From assembly GCA_029005335.1 (NCBI GenBank), contig JAQXFT010000022.1, positions 21,438-85,437 on the forward strand: a stretch of 64,000 nt of DNA, in the 5' to 3' direction. This DNA is from Oscillospiraceae bacterium (GTDB taxonomy: Bacteria > Bacillota > Clostridia > Oscillospirales > Ruminococcaceae). The notes under the pieces were generated by a model. It did no database searches, was not told the origin of the DNA, and saw only the letters and a list, made by a program, of their open reading frames with translations. The position numbers and the translations under genes were made by a program. Of this stretch, positions 56,350-62,034 are shown piece by piece; the stretch's first letter is position 1, and the number at the start of each line of letters is the position of its first letter.

Positions 56350-57237
56350 TCAGAAAAATATATTTATAGTTCCGAGAATAAGACCTATCAAAGCTCCGAG
56401 ATTTACAACCGCATTGAGTTCCTTTTTCATGATTGACATAAGCAAATCCTCAAGCATAAGTACGTCCATCTGATTTACTTTTTCCTCAACTATTTCTGAA
56501 ATTCTGAAATTCCTGATAAATTCATCTGCGTGCTTTTCGATAAAGCTTATATATATTCTCAGGAATGAATCGGGAAGCTTATCGGCATCAACTCCGGCTT
56601 CAGTCAGAATTTCATAAATTGATTTGTTTTCAAGCTTTCCGGCTTCAGAATCTATAATAGGTGAAATTATATCCCTGCCATTCTGATTTATGTATTCATT
56701 GACTTTTTCGCCCAGTGACATACAGAGAGAATTTATTAATTCATCTTTGATGAACATTGCAAGCATAGTTCCGGCAACCTTTTCCTTTATGGCGTCGCCA
56801 CCCTTTTCAGCAATAATCTGACCGAGATTTGCATTATTGGCAGAAGTCATGATTTTTTCTGTTATGACAGAGCATATATTCTGTCTGATTTCATTGTATT
56901 TTTCAGGGGACATTGTTTTTCCGGCAAAATCCTTCAGAGTAAGTTCGCTTCTGATGAGATTTCCAGCATATGATTTTATGGTGTTCTGCATTGACTCTGA
57001 AAGAAGTACATTTTTAATATCAGTTTCGGTAAGAAGAGTAGTTCCGACTGCTTTCCCGAGAGCCTTTGCAAGTCTTGGTTTACCCTTAGGGATTATTCCG
57101 GGAGTAAAGGGCAGAGTCTTTCCGCCTATTTTTACGGGGTGCAGAGGTCTGAAAAGCATCTTTACTGCTATATAGTTTGTAAAATATCCTATCACTGCAC
57201 CTACAAGAGGCGGTATAATGTATCTGAGCATTTCCAT
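56350..57237 (-). CDS. DUF445 (YheB-like) membrane protein
   Basis: GAVIGYFTNYIAVKMLFRP, PGIIPK, C-terminal ELNAVVNLGALIG. Confidence 0.88.
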   Translation of the reverse strand: MEMLRYIIPPLVGAVIGYFTNYIAVKMLFRPLHPVKIGGKTLPFTPGIIPKGKPRLAKALGKAVGTTLLTETDIKNVLLSESMQNTIKSYAGNLIRSELTLKDFAGKTMSPEKYNEIRQNICSVITEKIMTSANNANLGQIIAEKGGDAIKEKVAGTMLAMFIKDELINSLCMSLGEKVNEYINQNGRDIISPIIDSEAGKLENKSIYEILTEAGVDADKLPDSFLRIYISFIEKHADEFIRNFRISEIVEEKVNQMDVLMLEDLLMSIMKKELNAVVNLGALIGLILGTINIFF

Positions 57238-57268
57238 AATTTTTTCAAAATCCTTTCATCTTTGGTTT

Positions 57269-57940
57269 TTAATGCTTGTCCAGAAATTTTGTCTTTACAA
57301 AATATCCGGCAATACTGAAAAGTGCTATCAGTACAAAAAGAAATATTCCGGTTCTGAAGTTTCCCTCAAAGAAGCTGTCTCCCATTACAACAGAGCATAT
57401 CATAGCCGGAGTACGTGCAACAGCAGTTATCAGCATGAATTTTGCCGGACTTATATCTGTAAGAGCTGCTATATATGTCAGAAAATCCTTAGGCGTTCCG
57501 GGAATCATAAACAGTATGAAAATTATTACTGAAAGCTGTTTTTCATTTTTCAGAAAGCGGTGATTTTCAAAATCAGCTTTCGGAAAAATTTTTTTAACCA
57601 GAGGCTTTCCGAAGATTCTGACGAGATAAAATACAATCAATGTTCCGGTAAAAATTCCCACAAAGCAGAGAATACTTCCCCAGAGCTTTCCGAAAAGAAC
57701 TCCGCCTATGATATCAACAGGAGCTCCGGGTATGAATGCAAGAACTATCTGGAGAATTTCTATTCCTATGAATATGAGCGGAGCAAAAATTCCGAAGCTT
57801 CTTATTTTTTCGTCAAGAAGTATTCTTCCTTCCTCAGTATATATAAGCTTTATCAGCGGTATGATATAATACAGAAGTACAGTGCATACTGCAATAAGGA
57901 GAATTATTGCTATGGTTTTTGCAGTGCCTTTTTTCTTCAT
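57269..57940 (-). CDS. TVP38/TMEM64 (DedA/VTT) membrane protein
   Basis: LQIVLAFIPG, GGVLFG, MIPGTPKD, ARTPA. Confidence 0.88.
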   Translation of the reverse strand: MKKKGTAKTIAIILLIAVCTVLLYYIIPLIKLIYTEEGRILLDEKIRSFGIFAPLIFIGIEILQIVLAFIPGAPVDIIGGVLFGKLWGSILCFVGIFTGTLIVFYLVRIFGKPLVKKIFPKADFENHRFLKNEKQLSVIIFILFMIPGTPKDFLTYIAALTDISPAKFMLITAVARTPAMICSVVMGDSFFEGNFRTGIFLFVLIALFSIAGYFVKTKFLDKH

Positions 57941-58048
57941 ACTAATCCCTCATTCCTTTCATTTTATGCTTATTTATCTATTATGAACAGTAATTGCGAT
58001 AATTGTGTGTTGAAATTATTACCAAAGTATTACATTTGTAGAAAACAC

Positions 58049-58077
58049 TTGACAAGATTATTTTTTTTGTATATAAT
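58049..58077 (+). promoter_or_regulatory. Consensus sigma-A promoter of the cohesin-like lipoprotein
   Basis: TTGACA(58049-58054), 17 nt spacer, TATAAT(58072-58077). Confidence 0.85.
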
Positions 58078-58128
58078 AAATAACTGTAAATACTTATAAA
58101 TAAATTTATCGGAAAGGAACATAATGAA

Positions 58129-59145
58129 ATGAAAAATAAAAAATACAGATTGCTTTCTGCTATAGTTCTTTCAGGAATGATTCTTGCATCATTCGGAGGA
58201 TGCGGTGATAAGAATAATTCATCTGTTTCAGAATCATCTCTCAATTCAGAGGAAATTGCTGCTGTTCAGAAGCCCGGACTCTCCTTCCATTACGGCGAAC
58301 CGGCAACCTCCGGAAATCAGCTTGACGAGCCTGACCCGACTGCTGCCGTAACTACTTCAGCTTCTTCTGAAAGCTCCGGAAATGTTGCAACATCTGTTGC
58401 AGTTGTCACCGATTCAGAGGGTTCAGCTGTTACTGAGGTCGCTGATGTTACCGATGCCGCAGGTGCTGTTGTTACAACTCAGGTAGTTGTTACTGACAGC
58501 GAAGGTACTCCTGTTACAGAAGCCGGAGGTCAGACTGCTACTACTGTTGTAAATGTTACAGAAGTAGTTCAGAAAACTGAAATCTTTACTGAATCACAGT
58601 CAGAGGAAACCACTTCTGATTCCGAAACCCAGACAACGACAGCTTCTTCCGAAAGCTCTGAAAGTTCTGAAAGCTCTGAAGATACAAGCTATAAGGCAGA
58701 CATGAAATCATTCAATGCAATGTGGCTTGATGTCTCTGAAAGTAAGAATTATACCTTTAACGATACCTTCATTGAAGTAAAGGTTCAGATAAATGAAGAT
58801 ATTCCTGACGGAAAGTATCCTATAAACATCACATGGCCTGACTTTGCTGCCTATGACAAGGAGGTTATAGGAAAAACAATCGAAACTGACCACACTGTCA
58901 ATGGATACATATATGTAAATACACCTGTTGAGGCTCAGAATATTCCTTCTGACGGCTTCGTTGTATATGCAGAGAATGTTGAGGGAAAACAGGGTGAGGA
59001 GACTATTCTTAAATTCGGTCTTAAAAACAATCCGGGAATCTGTGCTGTAAACTTCAACTTTGAATATGACGAAAACGCCATAACAATCAAACAAGCCTAT
59101 GCAGTAGGAGATTTTGAGGAGATTTCCGCTGGAAATCTCAGCTGA
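58129..59145 (+). CDS. Surface lipoprotein with a Ser/Thr stalk and a circularly permuted cohesin-like domain
   Basis: Lipobox FGG-C; S/T/E-rich linker; C-terminal domain contains the cohesin second-half pattern before the first-half pattern (GICAVNFNFEYDENAI). Confidence 0.75.
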   Translation: MKNKKYRLLSAIVLSGMILASFGGCGDKNNSSVSESSLNSEEIAAVQKPGLSFHYGEPATSGNQLDEPDPTAAVTTSASSESSGNVATSVAVVTDSEGSAVTEVADVTDAAGAVVTTQVVVTDSEGTPVTEAGGQTATTVVNVTEVVQKTEIFTESQSEETTSDSETQTTTASSESSESSESSEDTSYKADMKSFNAMWLDVSESKNYTFNDTFIEVKVQINEDIPDGKYPINITWPDFAAYDKEVIGKTIETDHTVNGYIYVNTPVEAQNIPSDGFVVYAENVEGKQGEETILKFGLKNNPGICAVNFNFEYDENAITIKQAYAVGDFEEISAGNLS

Positions 59146-59154
59146 TTAAAATAT

Positions 59155-59175
59155 GCCGGTCATAATCTGACCGGC
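59155..59175. terminator. Bidirectional terminator
   Basis: GCCGGTCA-taatc-TGACCGGC plus a T run. Confidence 0.85.
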
Positions 59176-59184
59176 TTTTTTTTA

Positions 59185-60276
59185 TTATTCAAGAAAATCC
59201 TTTACCTTTTTGCTTCTGCTGGGGTGACGGAGCTTTCTGAGAGCCTTTGCCTCAATCTGGCGGATACGCTCCCGTGTGACTTCAAAACGCTGTCCGACTT
59301 CCTCAAGAGTACGTGACTTTCCGTCCTCAAGACCGAATCTGAGTTTAAGTACCTTTGCTTCACGTTCTGTAAGTGTGTTGAGAACCTCATTGAGCTGTTC
59401 CTTTAAAAGAGTGTGTGAAGCAGCTTCTGCAGGAGCAGGTGCATCGTCATCAGGTATAAAGTCTCCGAGATGGCTGTCTTCCTCCTCACCTATAGGAGTT
59501 TCAAGCGATACAGGGTCCTGTGCTATACGCATGATTTCACGAACCTTGTCAACAGGCATATCAAGTTCCTTTGCTATTTCCTCCGGAGAAGGGTCACGAC
59601 CGTTTTCGTGGAGAAGCTGACCTGAAATCTTTTTGACTTTTGTAATAGTTTCCACCATATGCACCGGTATTCTTATAGTCCTTGCCTGGTCTGCGATTGC
59701 CCTTGTGATAGCTTGTCTTATCCACCATGTAGCATAGGTTGAGAATTTGAAGCCCTTTGTGTAGTCAAATTTTTCTACAGCTTTAATAAGTCCGAGGTTG
59801 CCCTCCTGAATCAGGTCAAGGAACTGCATACCTCTGCCGACATATTTTTTAGCTATGCTGACTACAAGACGCAGATTTGCTTCAGAGAGCCTTTTTTTGG
59901 CATAGGGGTCACCGGTAGACATTTTTTTTGCAAGCTCTGTTTCTTCCTCGGTTGTAAGAAGCGGAACTTTTCCTATTTCCTTGAGATATATTTTTACGGG
60001 GTCGTCAATAGCGATACCCTCAGTGGAAAGAGAAATCTCGAGGTCATCATTTGTCGGAACATCGATGTTTGAAGACATTTCGGCATCAAGAGGATAGTCC
60101 TCAACTATTTTTATATTGAGGTTCTTGCAGTCGGTGTAGAAGGTATCTATCTTGTCTGCAATCTGTTCATCGTCGTCGAAATTTTCAAGAGCATCCATAA
60201 ATTCCTTAGTAGTGATAACGCCATTGGTTTTTCCCTGTTCCATGAGGGCTTCGATAGTATTTTTCTTTGTTTCCAT
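59185..60276 (-). CDS. rpoD: Primary sigma factor (sigma-A/RpoD)
   Basis: [58 protein letters not shown]. Confidence 0.97.
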
Positions 60277-60294
60277 ATACCCATTCCTCCTGAT

Positions 60295-62034
60295 TTATTT
60301 TTTGCCTTTTCTTTGAAACTTTTCCTTAATTGCTTCATCGGAGTAGTCGTCATTCTGGTTATCGTAATTTTTCAGCTTTATGATGCAGTCTTCAAAGAAC
60401 TGGTCATCTATGCTTACTTCTCTGTTTTTTGTTTCTATTCCAGTTATTCTGCTCATTTCCGCAAGTGAAAATTCATCAGCGAGCATTGATATTGTGAAAT
60501 GCTCTGAACCGTTCATTGAGCGACAGAGAGCGGAATATACTTTTTTATTGAAATCCGTTACAAAAATTTCCGGCGGAGCTTTTCTGGAAATATTTTCCGA
60601 CCTTTCAGGATATCTCAGAAGACAGAGGATAATTCCCTCTTCAGCACCGACGGCTTTCTGATTTGACAAAGCTTCCGGATTAATGTTATCCTGTTTATAG
60701 GTTTGTTCAGCAACAATATTATTCCACTCATATTTCTTTTCAGCACTGGTATTTTTTCGGATTTCCCTTTCTATATGGCTCTGAAGGACATCTCTGGATA
60801 TACCGCTTTTTTCGGCGGTACGGGATATGTATATATCACGTTCGATAGTGTTCTGTATTCCGGCGAGAAATTTTACTGAACGTTTGGTAAATTCTATTTT
60901 TCCCTGTTCGGAGTTCATATCGAGACCGTCCGCACATTTTTCGAGCATAAACGAATTTGCGTCCTCTGAATTATCCAGAAGCTTTCTGAAGCTTTCAGAG
61001 CCGAATTTTTTAATATATTCATCGGGGTCCTTGGCATCGTTCATTCTTATGATTTTTGCGGATATTCCGGCTTCCGAGAGTATATTCACAGCTCTCTGCG
61101 AAGCCTTCTGACCGGCACTGTCGCTGTCGTAGCAAAGAAGAACCTCATCGCAGTATCTTTTAAGCTTTGAGGCGTGGTGTTCGGTAATTGATGTTCCGAG
61201 AGTTGCCACAGCGTTTTCAAAGCCAGCCTGATTCAGTGATATTACGTCCATATAACCTTCAGTGAGAATCAGTTTTTTTGACGGATAATTTCTTGCGAAG
61301 TTAAGTGAGAACAGATTGCTTCCCTTGTCGAATACAAGGGTTTTGTTTGTATTCAGATATTTTGGCTTTGAATCGTCCAGCACACGTCCGCCGAAGGCGA
61401 TTATATTTCCTCTCAGGTCGAGTATCGGAAACATTACACGGTTTCGGAATATATCATAGAGCTTTCCGTTTTTCGGGGATTTTGTACAGAGCCATGCATC
61501 TGTAAGGATTTCATCGCTGAAGCCTTTTGATTTCATATATCTGTAAAGGCTGTCCCACGAGTCGGGAGCATATCCGAGACCGTATTTTTTTATAGTCTGA
61601 GGAGAAAGGTTTCTGCCGGCAAAGTAGGAAAGACCTCTTTTATCGGAGCCTTTTATCATATTGAGATAGAAATAGTTTGCTGCCTCACGGTTAGCTTCAT
61701 ATATCCGGCGTTTTTTTTCGGCATTTTTGCCGGAGTGATTCTGTTCAGGAATTTCAAGTCCGGAACGTTCAGCGAGTAGCTTTATCGCCTCCTGAAAATC
61801 GAGATTTTCTATTCCCATGACAAAGCTTATTACATCTCCGCCCGCACCGCAACCGAAGCAGTAAAAGCTCTGGCTATCCGGAAAGATTGTGCAGGACGGT
61901 GTTTTTTCGGAGTGGAACGGACAGGCACACACATAATTATGTCCCTGTCTCAGAAGATTGACGTATGAACCGACAACCGATTCAATCGGATTGGCTGATT
62001 TGAGCCGGTATAAAAATTCATCATTTCTGAGCAT
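60295..62034 (-). CDS. dnaG: DNA primase
   Basis: CPFHSEKTPS, CFGCG, KYLNT, EGYMDVI, ATLGT, YDSDSAG. Confidence 0.96.
   Translation of the reverse strand: MLRNDEFLYRLKSANPIESVVGSYVNLLRQGHNYVCACPFHSEKTPSCTIFPDSQSFYCFGCGAGGDVISFVMGIENLDFQEAIKLLAERSGLEIPEQNHSGKNAEKKRRIYEANREAANYFYLNMIKGSDKRGLSYFAGRNLSPQTIKKYGLGYAPDSWDSLYRYMKSKGFSDEILTDAWLCTKSPKNGKLYDIFRNRVMFPILDLRGNIIAFGGRVLDDSKPKYLNTNKTLVFDKGSNLFSLNFARNYPSKKLILTEGYMDVISLNQAGFENAVATLGTSITEHHASKLKRYCDEVLLCYDSDSAGQKASQRAVNILSEAGISAKIIRMNDAKDPDEYIKKFGSESFRKLLDNSEDANSFMLEKCADGLDMNSEQGKIEFTKRSVKFLAGIQNTIERDIYISRTAEKSGISRDVLQSHIEREIRKNTSAEKKYEWNNIVAEQTYKQDNINPEALSNQKAVGAEEGIILCLLRYPERSENISRKAPPEIFVTDFNKKVYSALCRSMNGSEHFTISMLADEFSLAEMSRITGIETKNREVSIDDQFFEDCIIKLKNYDNQNDDYSDEAIKEKFQRKGKK

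What the first reader, a model, noticed from the sequence alone, without database searches (positions are those of the whole stretch)
58681..59145. Circularly permuted cohesin on a membrane-anchored lipoprotein: a candidate alternative cellulosome or dockerin anchor
Seen: the last roughly 155 aa contain both halves of a cohesin in swapped order. First comes SYKADMKSFNAMWLD..KNYTFNDTFIEVKVQI..DGKYPINI..DFAAYD..NGYIYV, matching strands 4-9 (compare type I IVFLFAED..KDGVFAKIRATV..GFADND..DGGVNV). After a 12-aa linker (NTPVEAQNIPSD, 58918-58953) comes GFVVYAENVEGKQGEETILKF..NNPGICAVNFNFEYDENAITI..GDF, matching strands 1-3 (compare VVVEIGKVTGSVGTTVEIPV..GIANCDFVFRYDPNVLEI..GDI). The new termini fall in the strand 3-4 loop. 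The gene is monocistronic, with a perfect sigma-A promoter, lipobox, long stalk and its own terminator, so it looks functional rather than a fragment. Established: ruminococcal scaffoldins are usually sortase-anchored and cohesins normally run strand 1 to 9. Inference: a lipid-anchored, sortase-independent docking point for dockerin proteins, which standard cohesin HMMs would split or miss. An inverted cohesin may have been mentioned in ruminococcal scaffoldin surveys; I cannot verify this, so novelty needs a literature check.
Basis: partly seen in the sequence, partly recalled or inferred. Interest (0 to 1): 0.85.

Follow-up and report, generated by a model that had tools for sequence, protein, structure and literature searches.

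The report
Circularly permuted cohesin on a lipoprotein
This gene encodes a lipid-anchored surface protein whose head is a cohesin (the socket of cellulosome plug-and-socket assembly) with its two halves in swapped order; it belongs to a large, undescribed family found only in dockerin-rich gut and rumen bacteria, so it is a testable candidate for a cell-surface dockerin receptor that standard searches miss.

Summary
Window 58129-59145 (+) encodes a 338-aa lipoprotein with an invariant lipobox Cys25. Its last ~150 aa are a circularly permuted cohesin.

- **Pfam:** it sees only profile positions 6-47 in the native order. The re-ordered sequence gives one hit over 6-137/139.
- **Profile-profile alignment to 120 canonical cohesins:** the score rises from 111.5 (68 columns) to 183.4 (132 columns, whole template) after re-ordering. 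Shuffled and reversed controls stay at 111.6-111.9.
- **Solved type I cohesins (3KCP, 1AOH and others):** they align collinearly only with the re-ordered profile.
- **AlphaFold2:** one compact all-beta domain (pLDDT 84.7, pTM 0.78).
- **Foldseek:** found nothing, so there is no direct three-dimensional superposition.

The family is large: 113 clusters (50% identity) at E<1e-10. Of 121 representatives, 95 are lipoproteins and 15 carry an N-terminal dockerin instead.

Among 200 genomes of the same family, it occurs in 14. All 14 are dockerin-rich. None of about 179 dockerin-poor genomes has it. Two genomes have 81-100 dockerins but only one other Pfam cohesin.

Dockerin binding is inferred, not shown. 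I found no published permuted or lipoprotein-borne cohesin. This scan noted a similar protein on another genome. The new termini lie after strand 4, not in the 3-4 loop.

The parts
58049..58077 (+). Sigma-70/SigA-type promoter, TTGACA-17 nt-TATAAT (12 of 12 matches)
   Evidence: It is the only perfect match in 56500-60500. This is a consensus match only; the transcription start was not measured.
58111..58119 (+). Ribosome-binding site GGAAAGGAA, about 9 nt before the ATG
   Evidence: Read directly from the sequence.
58129..59145 (+). CDS of the 338-aa lipoprotein with a C-terminal circularly permuted cohesin (P0001); the stop codon is included
   Evidence: There are 16 homologues at 46-99% identity with the same architecture and the same C-terminus.
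58129..58203 (+). Lipoprotein signal peptide with lipobox SFGG|C. Cys25 (TGC 58201-58203) is the predicted lipidated residue.
   Evidence: Cys25 is invariant in 16 close sequences and 74 diverse sequences. 95 of 121 family representatives have a lipobox. Lgt and LspA genes are present in this genome.
58267..58341 (+). Conserved N-terminal motif (aa 47-71, QKPGLSFHYGEP...LDEPDPT). It is predicted as a beta-strand at aa 52-58. Its role is unknown.
   Evidence: Conserved across the family, with consensus h-K-Q-P-h-x-F. pLDDT is about 72 in the full-length model. It does not score as a cohesin strand.
58204..58683 (+). Ser/Thr/Val/Glu-rich stalk (aa 26-185), predicted disordered. It includes 14-aa repeats VTDxxGxxVTE starting near aa 94, 108, 122 and 130 (nt about 58402-58533).
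   Evidence: pLDDT 25-39. The repeat motif occurs in 72 of 112 family members, against 1 of 46 canonical scaffoldins. It is visible in the A5 consensus.
58684..58917 (+). First half of the permuted cohesin (aa 186-263). It corresponds to canonical strands (5)6-9: FNAMWLD, TFIEVKVQI, GKYPINITWPDFA, NGYIYV.
   Evidence: Aligns to canonical template positions 62-134 and to 3kcp_A residues 101-153. The AF2 strands are E10-18, E31-39, E46-52/56-59 and E73-81 of the domain.
58918..58953 (+). 12-aa linker NTPVEAQNIPSD. It joins the old C-terminus (strand 9) to the old N-terminus (strand 1).
   Evidence: It lies between the two HMM matches. Its length is similar to the inter-cohesin linkers of tandem scaffoldins, including this genome's own on C167 (about 13 aa).
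58954..59142 (+). Second half of the permuted cohesin (aa 276-338). It corresponds to canonical strands 1-4: GFVVYAENVEG, ETILKFGLK, NNPGICAVNFNFEYD, ITIKQAYA.
   Evidence: Pfam Cohesin profile 6-47. Template positions 1-68. 3kcp_A residues 7-61. AF2 strands E96-104, E109-117, E122-132 and E136-143.
59155..59183 (+). Intrinsic terminator: an 8-bp stem with 6 GC pairs, then a T-run. It is bidirectional and shared with the convergent rpoD gene.

Best explanation
**Shown by sequence analysis.** The gene encodes a lipoprotein. It has a signal peptide with Cys25 as the lipidation site, a stalk of about 160 aa that is mostly disordered, and a C-terminal domain of about 150 aa. That domain is a natural circular permutant of a type-I-like cohesin. 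Canonical strands (5)6-9 come first. A 12-aa linker then joins the old C-terminus to the old N-terminus. Strands 1-4 come last, and the new termini lie after strand 4. The most economical origin is duplication and truncation of a tandem-cohesin scaffoldin. The domain aligns contiguously across cohesin-cohesin junctions, and its internal linker has the length of an inter-cohesin linker. The protein belongs to a large unrecognised family.

**Inferred.** After Lgt/Lsp processing the protein is tethered to the outer face of the cytoplasmic membrane. The stalk carries the cohesin head through or into the cell wall. There the head binds the dockerin of one or more of the organism's roughly 49 dockerin proteins, which could be an enzyme, an adaptor or the main scaffoldin. 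This would give a sortase-independent, lipid-based cell-surface anchor for cellulosome components.

My confidence that it is a folded permuted cohesin is about 0.93. My confidence that it binds a dockerin is about 0.55-0.6. The figure below applies to the whole statement.
For: **Permutation**
- Pfam re-ordering test.
- Two order-swapped hits with a canonical-cohesin HMM in 113 proteins.
- hhalign score 183.4 over the whole template, against 111.5 in native order. Shuffled and reversed controls score 111.6-111.9. Each half matches its complementary part independently.
- Collinear full-length alignments of the re-ordered profile to solved cohesins 3kcp_A, 1aoh_A, 4ums_A, 1g1k_A and 2vn5_A, against split, swapped hits for the native profile.
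- The native-order HMM aligns across cohesin junctions of this genome's own tandem scaffoldin.

**Folded single domain**
- AF2 domain model: pLDDT 84.7, pTM 0.78. Its strand segments map one-to-one onto cohesin strands.

**Functional gene**
- Conserved family with a fixed C-terminus and an invariant Cys.
- Own promoter and terminator.
- Conserved synteny.
- Lgt and LspA are present.

**Link to dockerins**
- All 14 of 200 family genomes with the domain are dockerin-rich (at least 30 scored matches). None of about 179 genomes with 0-14 dockerins has it.
- 15 of 121 family members carry a Dockerin_1 module in place of the lipobox. That is the architecture of an adaptor scaffoldin.
- In genomes G016 and G173, with 81 and 100 dockerin matches, it is one of only two Pfam-detectable cohesins.
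Against: - No binding data exist, and no complex could be modelled.
- Foldseek found no significant match to any solved structure for either model. This is expected for a sequential aligner on a permutant, but it means the jelly-roll topology is not demonstrated in three dimensions.
- The gene sits among housekeeping genes (VTT/DedA, rpoD, dnaG), not next to dockerin genes.
- 7 of 21 dockerin-rich genomes lack the family, so it is not essential to cellulosome systems.
- Cohesin-like modules outside cellulosomes exist, so a cohesin fold alone does not prove dockerin binding. This point rests on my own knowledge of the literature.
- The co-occurrence counts involve related genomes and are not independent.
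- A conserved N-terminal strand motif of unknown role might occupy the domain.
Confidence: 0.58

Rival explanations
1. It is a genuine permuted cohesin fold on a lipoprotein, but it no longer binds dockerins, or never did. It recognises another ligand. Candidates are a wall or plant polysaccharide, another surface protein, or the protein's own conserved N-terminal strand motif (hKQPhxF).
For: - There is no dockerin gene next to it, and the neighbourhood is housekeeping.
- A conserved N-terminal strand is predicted with moderate confidence in the full-length model.
- 7 of 21 dockerin-rich genomes lack the family.
- Non-cellulosomal cohesin-like modules are known; this rests on my own knowledge.
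Against: - The family is restricted to dockerin-rich genomes: 14 of 14 against 0 of about 179.
- Dockerin-bearing family members exist.
- Its closest relatives are the cohesins of tandem Coh-Doc scaffoldins.
- The best-conserved blocks (NNPG..F.YD, W.D, DG.YPI) are those shared with those cohesins.
Confidence: 0.27
2. The two half-cohesins do not fold together within one chain. They complement in trans, giving domain-swapped dimers or oligomers of the lipoprotein on the membrane, each reconstituted cohesin being built from two molecules.
For: - Duplication-truncation products can in principle domain-swap.
- The linker is short (12 aa) for spanning the length of a beta-sandwich (inference).
- No coordinates were available to verify the intrachain path.
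Against: - AF2 predicts a compact monomeric domain with pTM 0.78 and pLDDT 95-97 around the linker-proximal strands.
- Linker length is conserved at about 12-20 aa, enough for roughly 40 A (inference).
Confidence: 0.08
3. It is a decaying remnant of a tandem-cohesin scaffoldin gene (the end of one cohesin plus the start of the next), or an assembly artefact, with no function.
For: The native order equals what a fragment spanning a cohesin-cohesin junction would look like.
Against: - It is conserved from 99% down to about 25% identity in more than 100 clusters, with the same start and end of the domain.
- It has an invariant lipobox Cys, its own promoter and terminator, and no stops.
- The same gene is present on many independent contigs and in isolate-quality MAGs.
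Confidence: 0.02

Closest known systems
Type I cohesins of clostridial scaffoldins (e.g. C. thermocellum CipA cohesins, PDB 1AOH and 3KCP; C. cellulolyticum CipC cohesin 1, PDB 1G1K)
   Same: The same set of beta-strands and sequence motifs. A re-ordered family profile aligns over the whole length of these chains. The Pfam Cohesin model is matched above its cut-off after re-ordering.
   Different: Chain connectivity. Here strands (5)6-9 precede strands 1-4, and a linker joins the old termini. Known cohesins all run 1 to 9. Native-order searches find only a third of the domain. Dockerin binding has not been shown here.
Cohesins of tandem Coh...Coh-Doc scaffoldins of uncultured Oscillospiraceae/Ruminococcus (e.g. 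P0087, P0091, P0102, P0105; this genome's own scaffoldin on contig C167)
   Same: These are the closest sequence relatives (NNPG...YD, W.., DG.YPI motifs). hhalign gives probability 99.9. They are the likely evolutionary source by duplication and truncation.
   Different: Those are canonical, repeated, and usually end in a dockerin. This one is single, permuted, and sits at the C-terminus of a lipoprotein.
Single-cohesin anchoring scaffoldins: ScaE of Ruminococcus flavefaciens (sortase/LPXTG), and OlpA/OlpC/SdbA of C. thermocellum (SLH domains)
   Same: The proposed role: one cohesin held at the cell surface to receive a dockerin-bearing scaffoldin or enzyme.
   Different: The anchor is an N-terminal diacylglyceryl-Cys (lipoprotein), not a C-terminal sortase signal or SLH repeats. 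The cohesin is permuted. The role here is inferred. The anchoring modes of ScaE and Olp are taken from my own knowledge and from PMC11557425.
The lone Coh-Doc 'adaptor' protein of Ruminococcus albus (Dassa et al. 2014, PMC4081043)
   Same: It occurs in the same kind of genome: many dockerins and very few recognisable cohesins. Genomes G016 and G173 here have one such Coh-Doc protein plus the permuted-cohesin lipoprotein.
   Different: The R. albus protein is a canonical cohesin with no cell anchor. Whether R. albus itself has a permuted-cohesin lipoprotein could not be tested here.
Natural circular permutants of beta-sandwich proteins (e.g. concanavalin A versus favin among legume lectins)
   Same: The same fold with a rotated chain order. 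Such permutants are thought to arise by duplication or by re-ligation (my own knowledge).
   Different: A different protein family. The permutation here is genetic and defines a whole family.

Membership tests
Cohesin domain (Pfam PF00963) | Sequence match to the family model above the curated cut-off over most of the model | tested here: inconclusive
   - Native full-length protein: no hit at E<=10.
- Native domain: 26.3 bits, but only profile 6-47.
- Re-ordered domain: 29.4 bits (cut-off 24.1) over profile 6-137/139.
- Family-level profile comparison after re-ordering: probability 99.9, E 3e-32, whole template.

The feature is met only after re-ordering.
Cohesin domain (Pfam PF00963) | Collinear strand order 1 to 9 of the jelly-roll | tested here: not met
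   The order is (5)6-9, linker, 1-4 in P0001 and in 113 family representatives. This is the defining difference, so I file it as a permuted variant and not a standard member.
Cohesin domain (Pfam PF00963) | Nine-stranded beta-sandwich (jelly-roll) fold | tested here: inconclusive
   The AF2 model is compact and all-beta (pLDDT 84.7, pTM 0.78). Its strand segments map one-to-one onto cohesin strands 6, 7, 8, 9, 1, 2, 3 and 4. Foldseek, a sequential aligner, gave no significant hit.
Cohesin domain (Pfam PF00963) | Ca2+-dependent binding of a dockerin | not testable with these tools
   Only circumstantial: co-occurrence with dockerin-rich genomes, and dockerin-bearing family members.
Bacterial lipoprotein (Lgt/LspA substrates) | N-terminal signal peptide: a basic n-region, a hydrophobic h-region, and a lipobox ending in an invariant Cys | tested here: met
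   MKNKKYRLLSAIVLSGMILASFGG|C. Cys25 is invariant in 74 diverse members. 95 of 121 representatives have a lipobox. Position -3 is Phe, which is less common but, as I recall, allowed in Gram-positive lipobox patterns.
Bacterial lipoprotein (Lgt/LspA substrates) | The organism encodes the lipoprotein maturation enzymes | tested here: met
   LGT (PF01790, E 2.8e-68) and signal peptidase II (PF01252, E 1.1e-31) are found in the window's own genome.
Bacterial lipoprotein (Lgt/LspA substrates) | Actual lipid modification and membrane association | not testable with these tools
   Needs globomycin or palmitate labelling, or Triton X-114 partitioning.
Anchoring scaffoldin of a cellulosome | A cell-anchoring device and one or more cohesins in the same protein, in a genome with dockerin proteins | tested here: met
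   A lipobox plus a permuted cohesin. The own genome has about 49 Dockerin_1 matches and about 8 canonical cohesins.
Anchoring scaffoldin of a cellulosome | Demonstrated binding of a scaffoldin-borne or enzyme-borne dockerin at the cell surface | not testable with these tools

The most novel reading that the evidence does not exclude
Permuted-cohesin lipoproteins are the missing primary dockerin receptors of 'cohesin-poor, dockerin-rich' ruminococci. This is the situation described for Ruminococcus albus, and seen here in genomes G016 and G173, which have 81-100 dockerins, one Coh-Doc adaptor and this lipoprotein. On this reading they tether enzymes directly to the membrane through a lipid anchor. 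They would define a third, sortase- and SLH-independent mode of cellulosome attachment that domain searches have overlooked because of the permutation.
Probability: 0.3. Interest if true: 0.9.

Novelty: new variant of a known kind. Interest (0 to 1): 0.75.

Why it matters
Cohesin-dockerin pairing is the assembly principle of cellulosomes and amylosomes. It is also a widely used tool in synthetic biology.

- **Topology.** As far as I could find in the searchable literature, every described cohesin has the same chain order. Cell-surface anchoring is described as going through sortase, SLH domains, or occasionally a transmembrane helix. A large, conserved family of naturally permuted cohesins on lipoproteins would add a new topology and a new anchoring mode.
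- **Under-counting.** It would explain why genome surveys under-count cohesins. Pfam finds only about 40 of about 140 positions, and often falls below threshold.
- **Orphan dockerins.** It gives a concrete, cloneable candidate for what 'orphan' dockerins bind in cohesin-poor ruminococci. That question has been open since at least Dassa et al. 2014 (PMC4081043).
- **Engineering.** The new termini, after strand 4, show where a cohesin tolerates chain opening. That is useful for engineering fusions.

Tried and rejected
2. **The conserved N-terminal motif (aa 47-58) as the 'missing' strand 5, displaced by the stalk.** Inserting it between the halves did not raise the hhalign score (179-181 against 182-184). 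Rejected as homology; its role remains unexplained.
3. **phmmer of the native domain against PDB sequences.** It gave only noise (TAL effector, fluorescent proteins). A family profile was needed.
4. **The search for related loci.** With the diverse alignment it failed because no conserved stretch was found. With the close alignment it found only uncultured MAGs.
5. **Naming cultured hosts.** Three attempts through source names returned only 'Ruminococcus sp.' or 'Oscillospiraceae bacterium' MAGs. I therefore could not test R. albus, R. flavefaciens, R. champanellensis or R. bromii by name.
7. **Sortase-anchored cohesins in this genome.** None was seen among the detected cohesin ORFs. The main scaffoldin runs off its contig and the assembly has 224 contigs, so no conclusion can be drawn. 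Eight sortase genes are present.
8. **The pseudogene or fragment reading.** Rejected because of conservation (see the rival explanations).
Full report
**1. What is there**

Window 58129-59145 (+) is a 338-aa ORF (P0001).
- A perfect TTGACA-17-TATAAT promoter lies at 58049-58077. It is the only 12/12 match in the 4 kb scanned. A GGAAAGGAA ribosome-binding site follows.
- A GC-rich hairpin terminator follows the ORF at 59155-59175. It is shared with the convergent rpoD gene.
- The N-terminus, MKNKKYRLLSAIVLSGMILASFGG|C, is a lipoprotein signal.
- The genome encodes Lgt and signal peptidase II.
- Residues 26-185 are Ser/Thr/Val/Glu-rich and predicted disordered (pLDDT 25-39).
- Residues about 186-338 form the domain in question.

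**2. The permutation is real**

(a) *Pfam.* The full native protein gets no Cohesin hit even at E<=10. The native domain matches only profile positions 6-47 (26.3 bits). The re-ordered domain, with the C-terminal piece first, gives a single match over 6-137 of 139 (29.4 bits, cut-off 24.1). Taken alone, a gain of 3 bits is weak, so I tested the point at family level.

(b) *A canonical-cohesin HMM.* I built it from four Pfam-verified cohesins of tandem scaffoldins. It hits P0001 twice in swapped order: aa 164-246 to model 37-120, and aa 281-333 to model 4-56. It does the same in 113 of the 164 proteins retrieved.

(c) *Profile-profile alignment (hhalign).* I aligned a 113-sequence family alignment to 120 canonical cohesin domains.

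| Input | Aligned columns | Score | Other |
|---|---|---|---|
| Native order | 68 | 111.5 | |
| Permuted order | 132 (template 1-134 of 134) | 183.4 | E 3e-32, probability 99.9 |
| Other half column-shuffled, 10 times, or reversed | 93-127 | 111.6-111.9 | |
| First half alone | 71 (template 62-134) | 82.5 | E 3.5e-15 |

(d) *Solved structures.* The re-ordered family profile (A3) aligns collinearly and at full length with experimentally characterised cohesins. Examples are 3kcp_A (query 2-146 to chain 9-152), 1aoh_A, 4ums_A, 1g1k_A, 2vn5_A and 6kg8_A. The native-order profile (A4) hits the same chains in two order-swapped pieces. For 3kcp_A these are query 93-145 to chain 7-61, and query 32-83 to chain 101-153.

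(e) *This genome's own tandem scaffoldin.* The native-order HMM aligns contiguously across the cohesin-cohesin junctions of the scaffoldin on contig C167. This is the classic signature of a permutant that arose by duplication and truncation.

From the 3kcp alignment, SYKADM corresponds to FDTAVYP (strand 5) and FNAMWLD to IVFLFAED (strand 6). The strand numbering is recalled from the published CipA cohesin structures.

**3. Structure**

- AlphaFold2 on the domain with 16 homologues gives mean pLDDT 84.7 and pTM 0.78. This is one compact all-beta domain.
- Using the HMM alignments, its strand segments map one-to-one onto cohesin strands 6, 7, 8 (split), 9, then 1 (with a bulge), 2, 3 and 4.
- The 12-residue linker NTPVEAQNIPSD (58918-58953) has the length of the inter-cohesin linkers in tandem scaffoldins. 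It could span the roughly 35-40 A between the old termini (inference).
- Foldseek found no significant match for either model. That is what a sequential aligner does with a permutant. It also means I have no three-dimensional superposition, and the coordinates cannot be exported for a permutation-aware alignment. This is the main gap on the structural side.

**4. The family**

- Close homologues (46-99% identity, 321-355 aa) share the lipobox, the stalk and the exact C-terminus.
- An exhaustive search of 1.84 billion cluster representatives found 355 clusters at E<1e-3 and 113 at E<1e-10. Most are 270-360 aa with the domain at the C-terminus.
- Of 121 representatives, 95 have a lipobox. Another 15 carry a Pfam-verified N-terminal Dockerin_1 module instead. 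The remaining 11 are mostly gene fragments.
- The exchange of a lipid anchor for a dockerin at the same position mirrors anchoring versus adaptor scaffoldins. It argues that the N-terminus is the tether and the permuted cohesin is the working head.
- Public annotations call members 'hypothetical protein', or occasionally 'cohesin domain-containing protein'. One cluster is seen on at least 1000 contigs.

**5. Distribution**

- In 200 genomes sampled from the same taxonomic family, the domain occurs in 14 genomes from 10 genera.
- Dockerins occur in 64 of the 200. All 14 positives are among the 21 dockerin-rich genomes (20 or more matches). None of the roughly 179 genomes with 0-14 dockerins has the domain. 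Related genomes are not independent, so I give counts only.
- Two genomes of one genus stand out. G016 has 81 dockerin matches and G173 has 100. Each has only two Pfam Cohesin matches: a Coh-Doc adaptor and the permuted-cohesin lipoprotein.
- This matches the 'cohesin-deficient yet dockerin-rich' puzzle described for R. albus (PMC4081043).
- Pfam is known to under-detect ruminococcal cohesins (PMC11557425), so 'only two' is a lower bound.

**6. Context**

- In close relatives the gene sits between a divergently transcribed VTT/DedA-family membrane protein and the convergent rpoD-dnaG operon.
- The VTT neighbour persists at 54% identity and at 37% identity, the latter in another genus.
- No dockerin gene is adjacent.
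- The own genome is 1.82 Mb with 38.7% GC. It has about 49 dockerin matches, about 8 canonical cohesins and 8 sortases.

**7. Mechanism**

*Shown by sequence:* a lipoprotein signal, a stalk and a permuted cohesin.

*Inferred:*
- Lgt and LspA lipidate Cys25.
- The 160-aa stalk lifts the cohesin into or through the wall.
- The cohesin binds a dockerin and anchors enzymes or a scaffoldin to the cell without sortase.

*Rivals:*
- A cohesin-like head with a non-dockerin ligand.
- A domain-swapped oligomer.
- A gene remnant, effectively excluded by conservation.

**8. Novelty**

Full-text searches for permuted cohesins, permuted cellulosome modules, lipobox or lipoprotein cohesins, and the ruminococcal scaffoldin surveys found no such description. 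The library lacks most subscription journals, so this is 'not found', not 'absent'. This scan's notes include one first-reader observation of a similar protein on another genome, with no follow-up. I class the finding as a new variant of a known kind: a cohesin with a new topology and a new anchor.

**9. Unexplained**

- *N-terminal motif.* A motif just after the lipobox (aa 47-58, family consensus h-K-Q-P-h-x-F, followed by LDxxDPT) is conserved. It is predicted as a strand with pLDDT about 72 in the full-length model. It does not behave as a cohesin strand. If it docks onto the domain, the 'stalk' would be a loop and the head would sit near the membrane.
- *Stalk repeats.* The stalk carries family-specific 14-aa repeats T[DEN]xxGxx[VIA]T. 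They occur in 72 of 112 members, against 1 of 46 canonical scaffoldins.

Noticed in passing
window 58267-58341 (aa 47-71 of P0001): There is a conserved motif directly after the lipobox: QKPGLSFHYGEP...LDEPDPT, with family consensus h-K-Q-P-h-x-F followed by D-P-T. In the full-length AF2 model it is predicted as a beta-strand with pLDDT about 72. It may pack onto the permuted cohesin, as an extra edge strand or a plug, but it does not score as a cohesin strand.
   Followed up: partly
window 58402-58533 (aa 92-135): There are three to four 14-aa repeats VTDxxGxxVTE in the stalk. The motif T[DEN]xxGxx[VIA]T occurs in 72 of 112 family members and in only 1 of 46 canonical scaffoldins. It matches no Pfam family, and its role is unknown.
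   Followed up: partly
window 57269-57940 (-), and L017, L018, L013: A VTT/DedA-family membrane protein is transcribed divergently from the lipoprotein gene. It remains the upstream neighbour at 54% identity and at 37% identity in another genus. This could be plain synteny or a functional link.
   Followed up: partly
genomes G016 (L013 = G016:C21:20609-24025) and G173: These two genomes of one genus have 81 and 100 Dockerin_1 matches. Each has only two Pfam Cohesin matches: one Coh-Doc adaptor and the permuted-cohesin lipoprotein. The cohesin-poor situation resembles that of R. albus.
   Followed up: partly
proteins P0039, P0048, P0060, P0063, P0067, P0069, P0077, P0100 and others (metagenomic): These family members have a signal peptide and a Dockerin_1 module in place of the lipobox. 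P0063 additionally carries BspA-type leucine-rich repeats. They are permuted cohesins built into adaptor-like proteins.
   Followed up: partly
G000 contig C167:6482-8251 (-), 590-aa frame (L010): In the window's own genome, a dockerin-bearing 590-aa ORF next to the tandem scaffoldin gives only partial cohesin-like matches: Pfam profile 5-43, and family HMM 35-92. It may be a further divergent or partial cohesin.
   Followed up: no
protein cluster of P0188/P0198 (293-300 aa): One family cluster is recorded on at least 1000 contigs, the longest 1.16 Mb, and is named 'cohesin domain-containing protein [Oscillospiraceae bacterium]'. At least one host of this family is therefore very abundant in sequenced gut samples. 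Its identity was not resolved.
   Followed up: no
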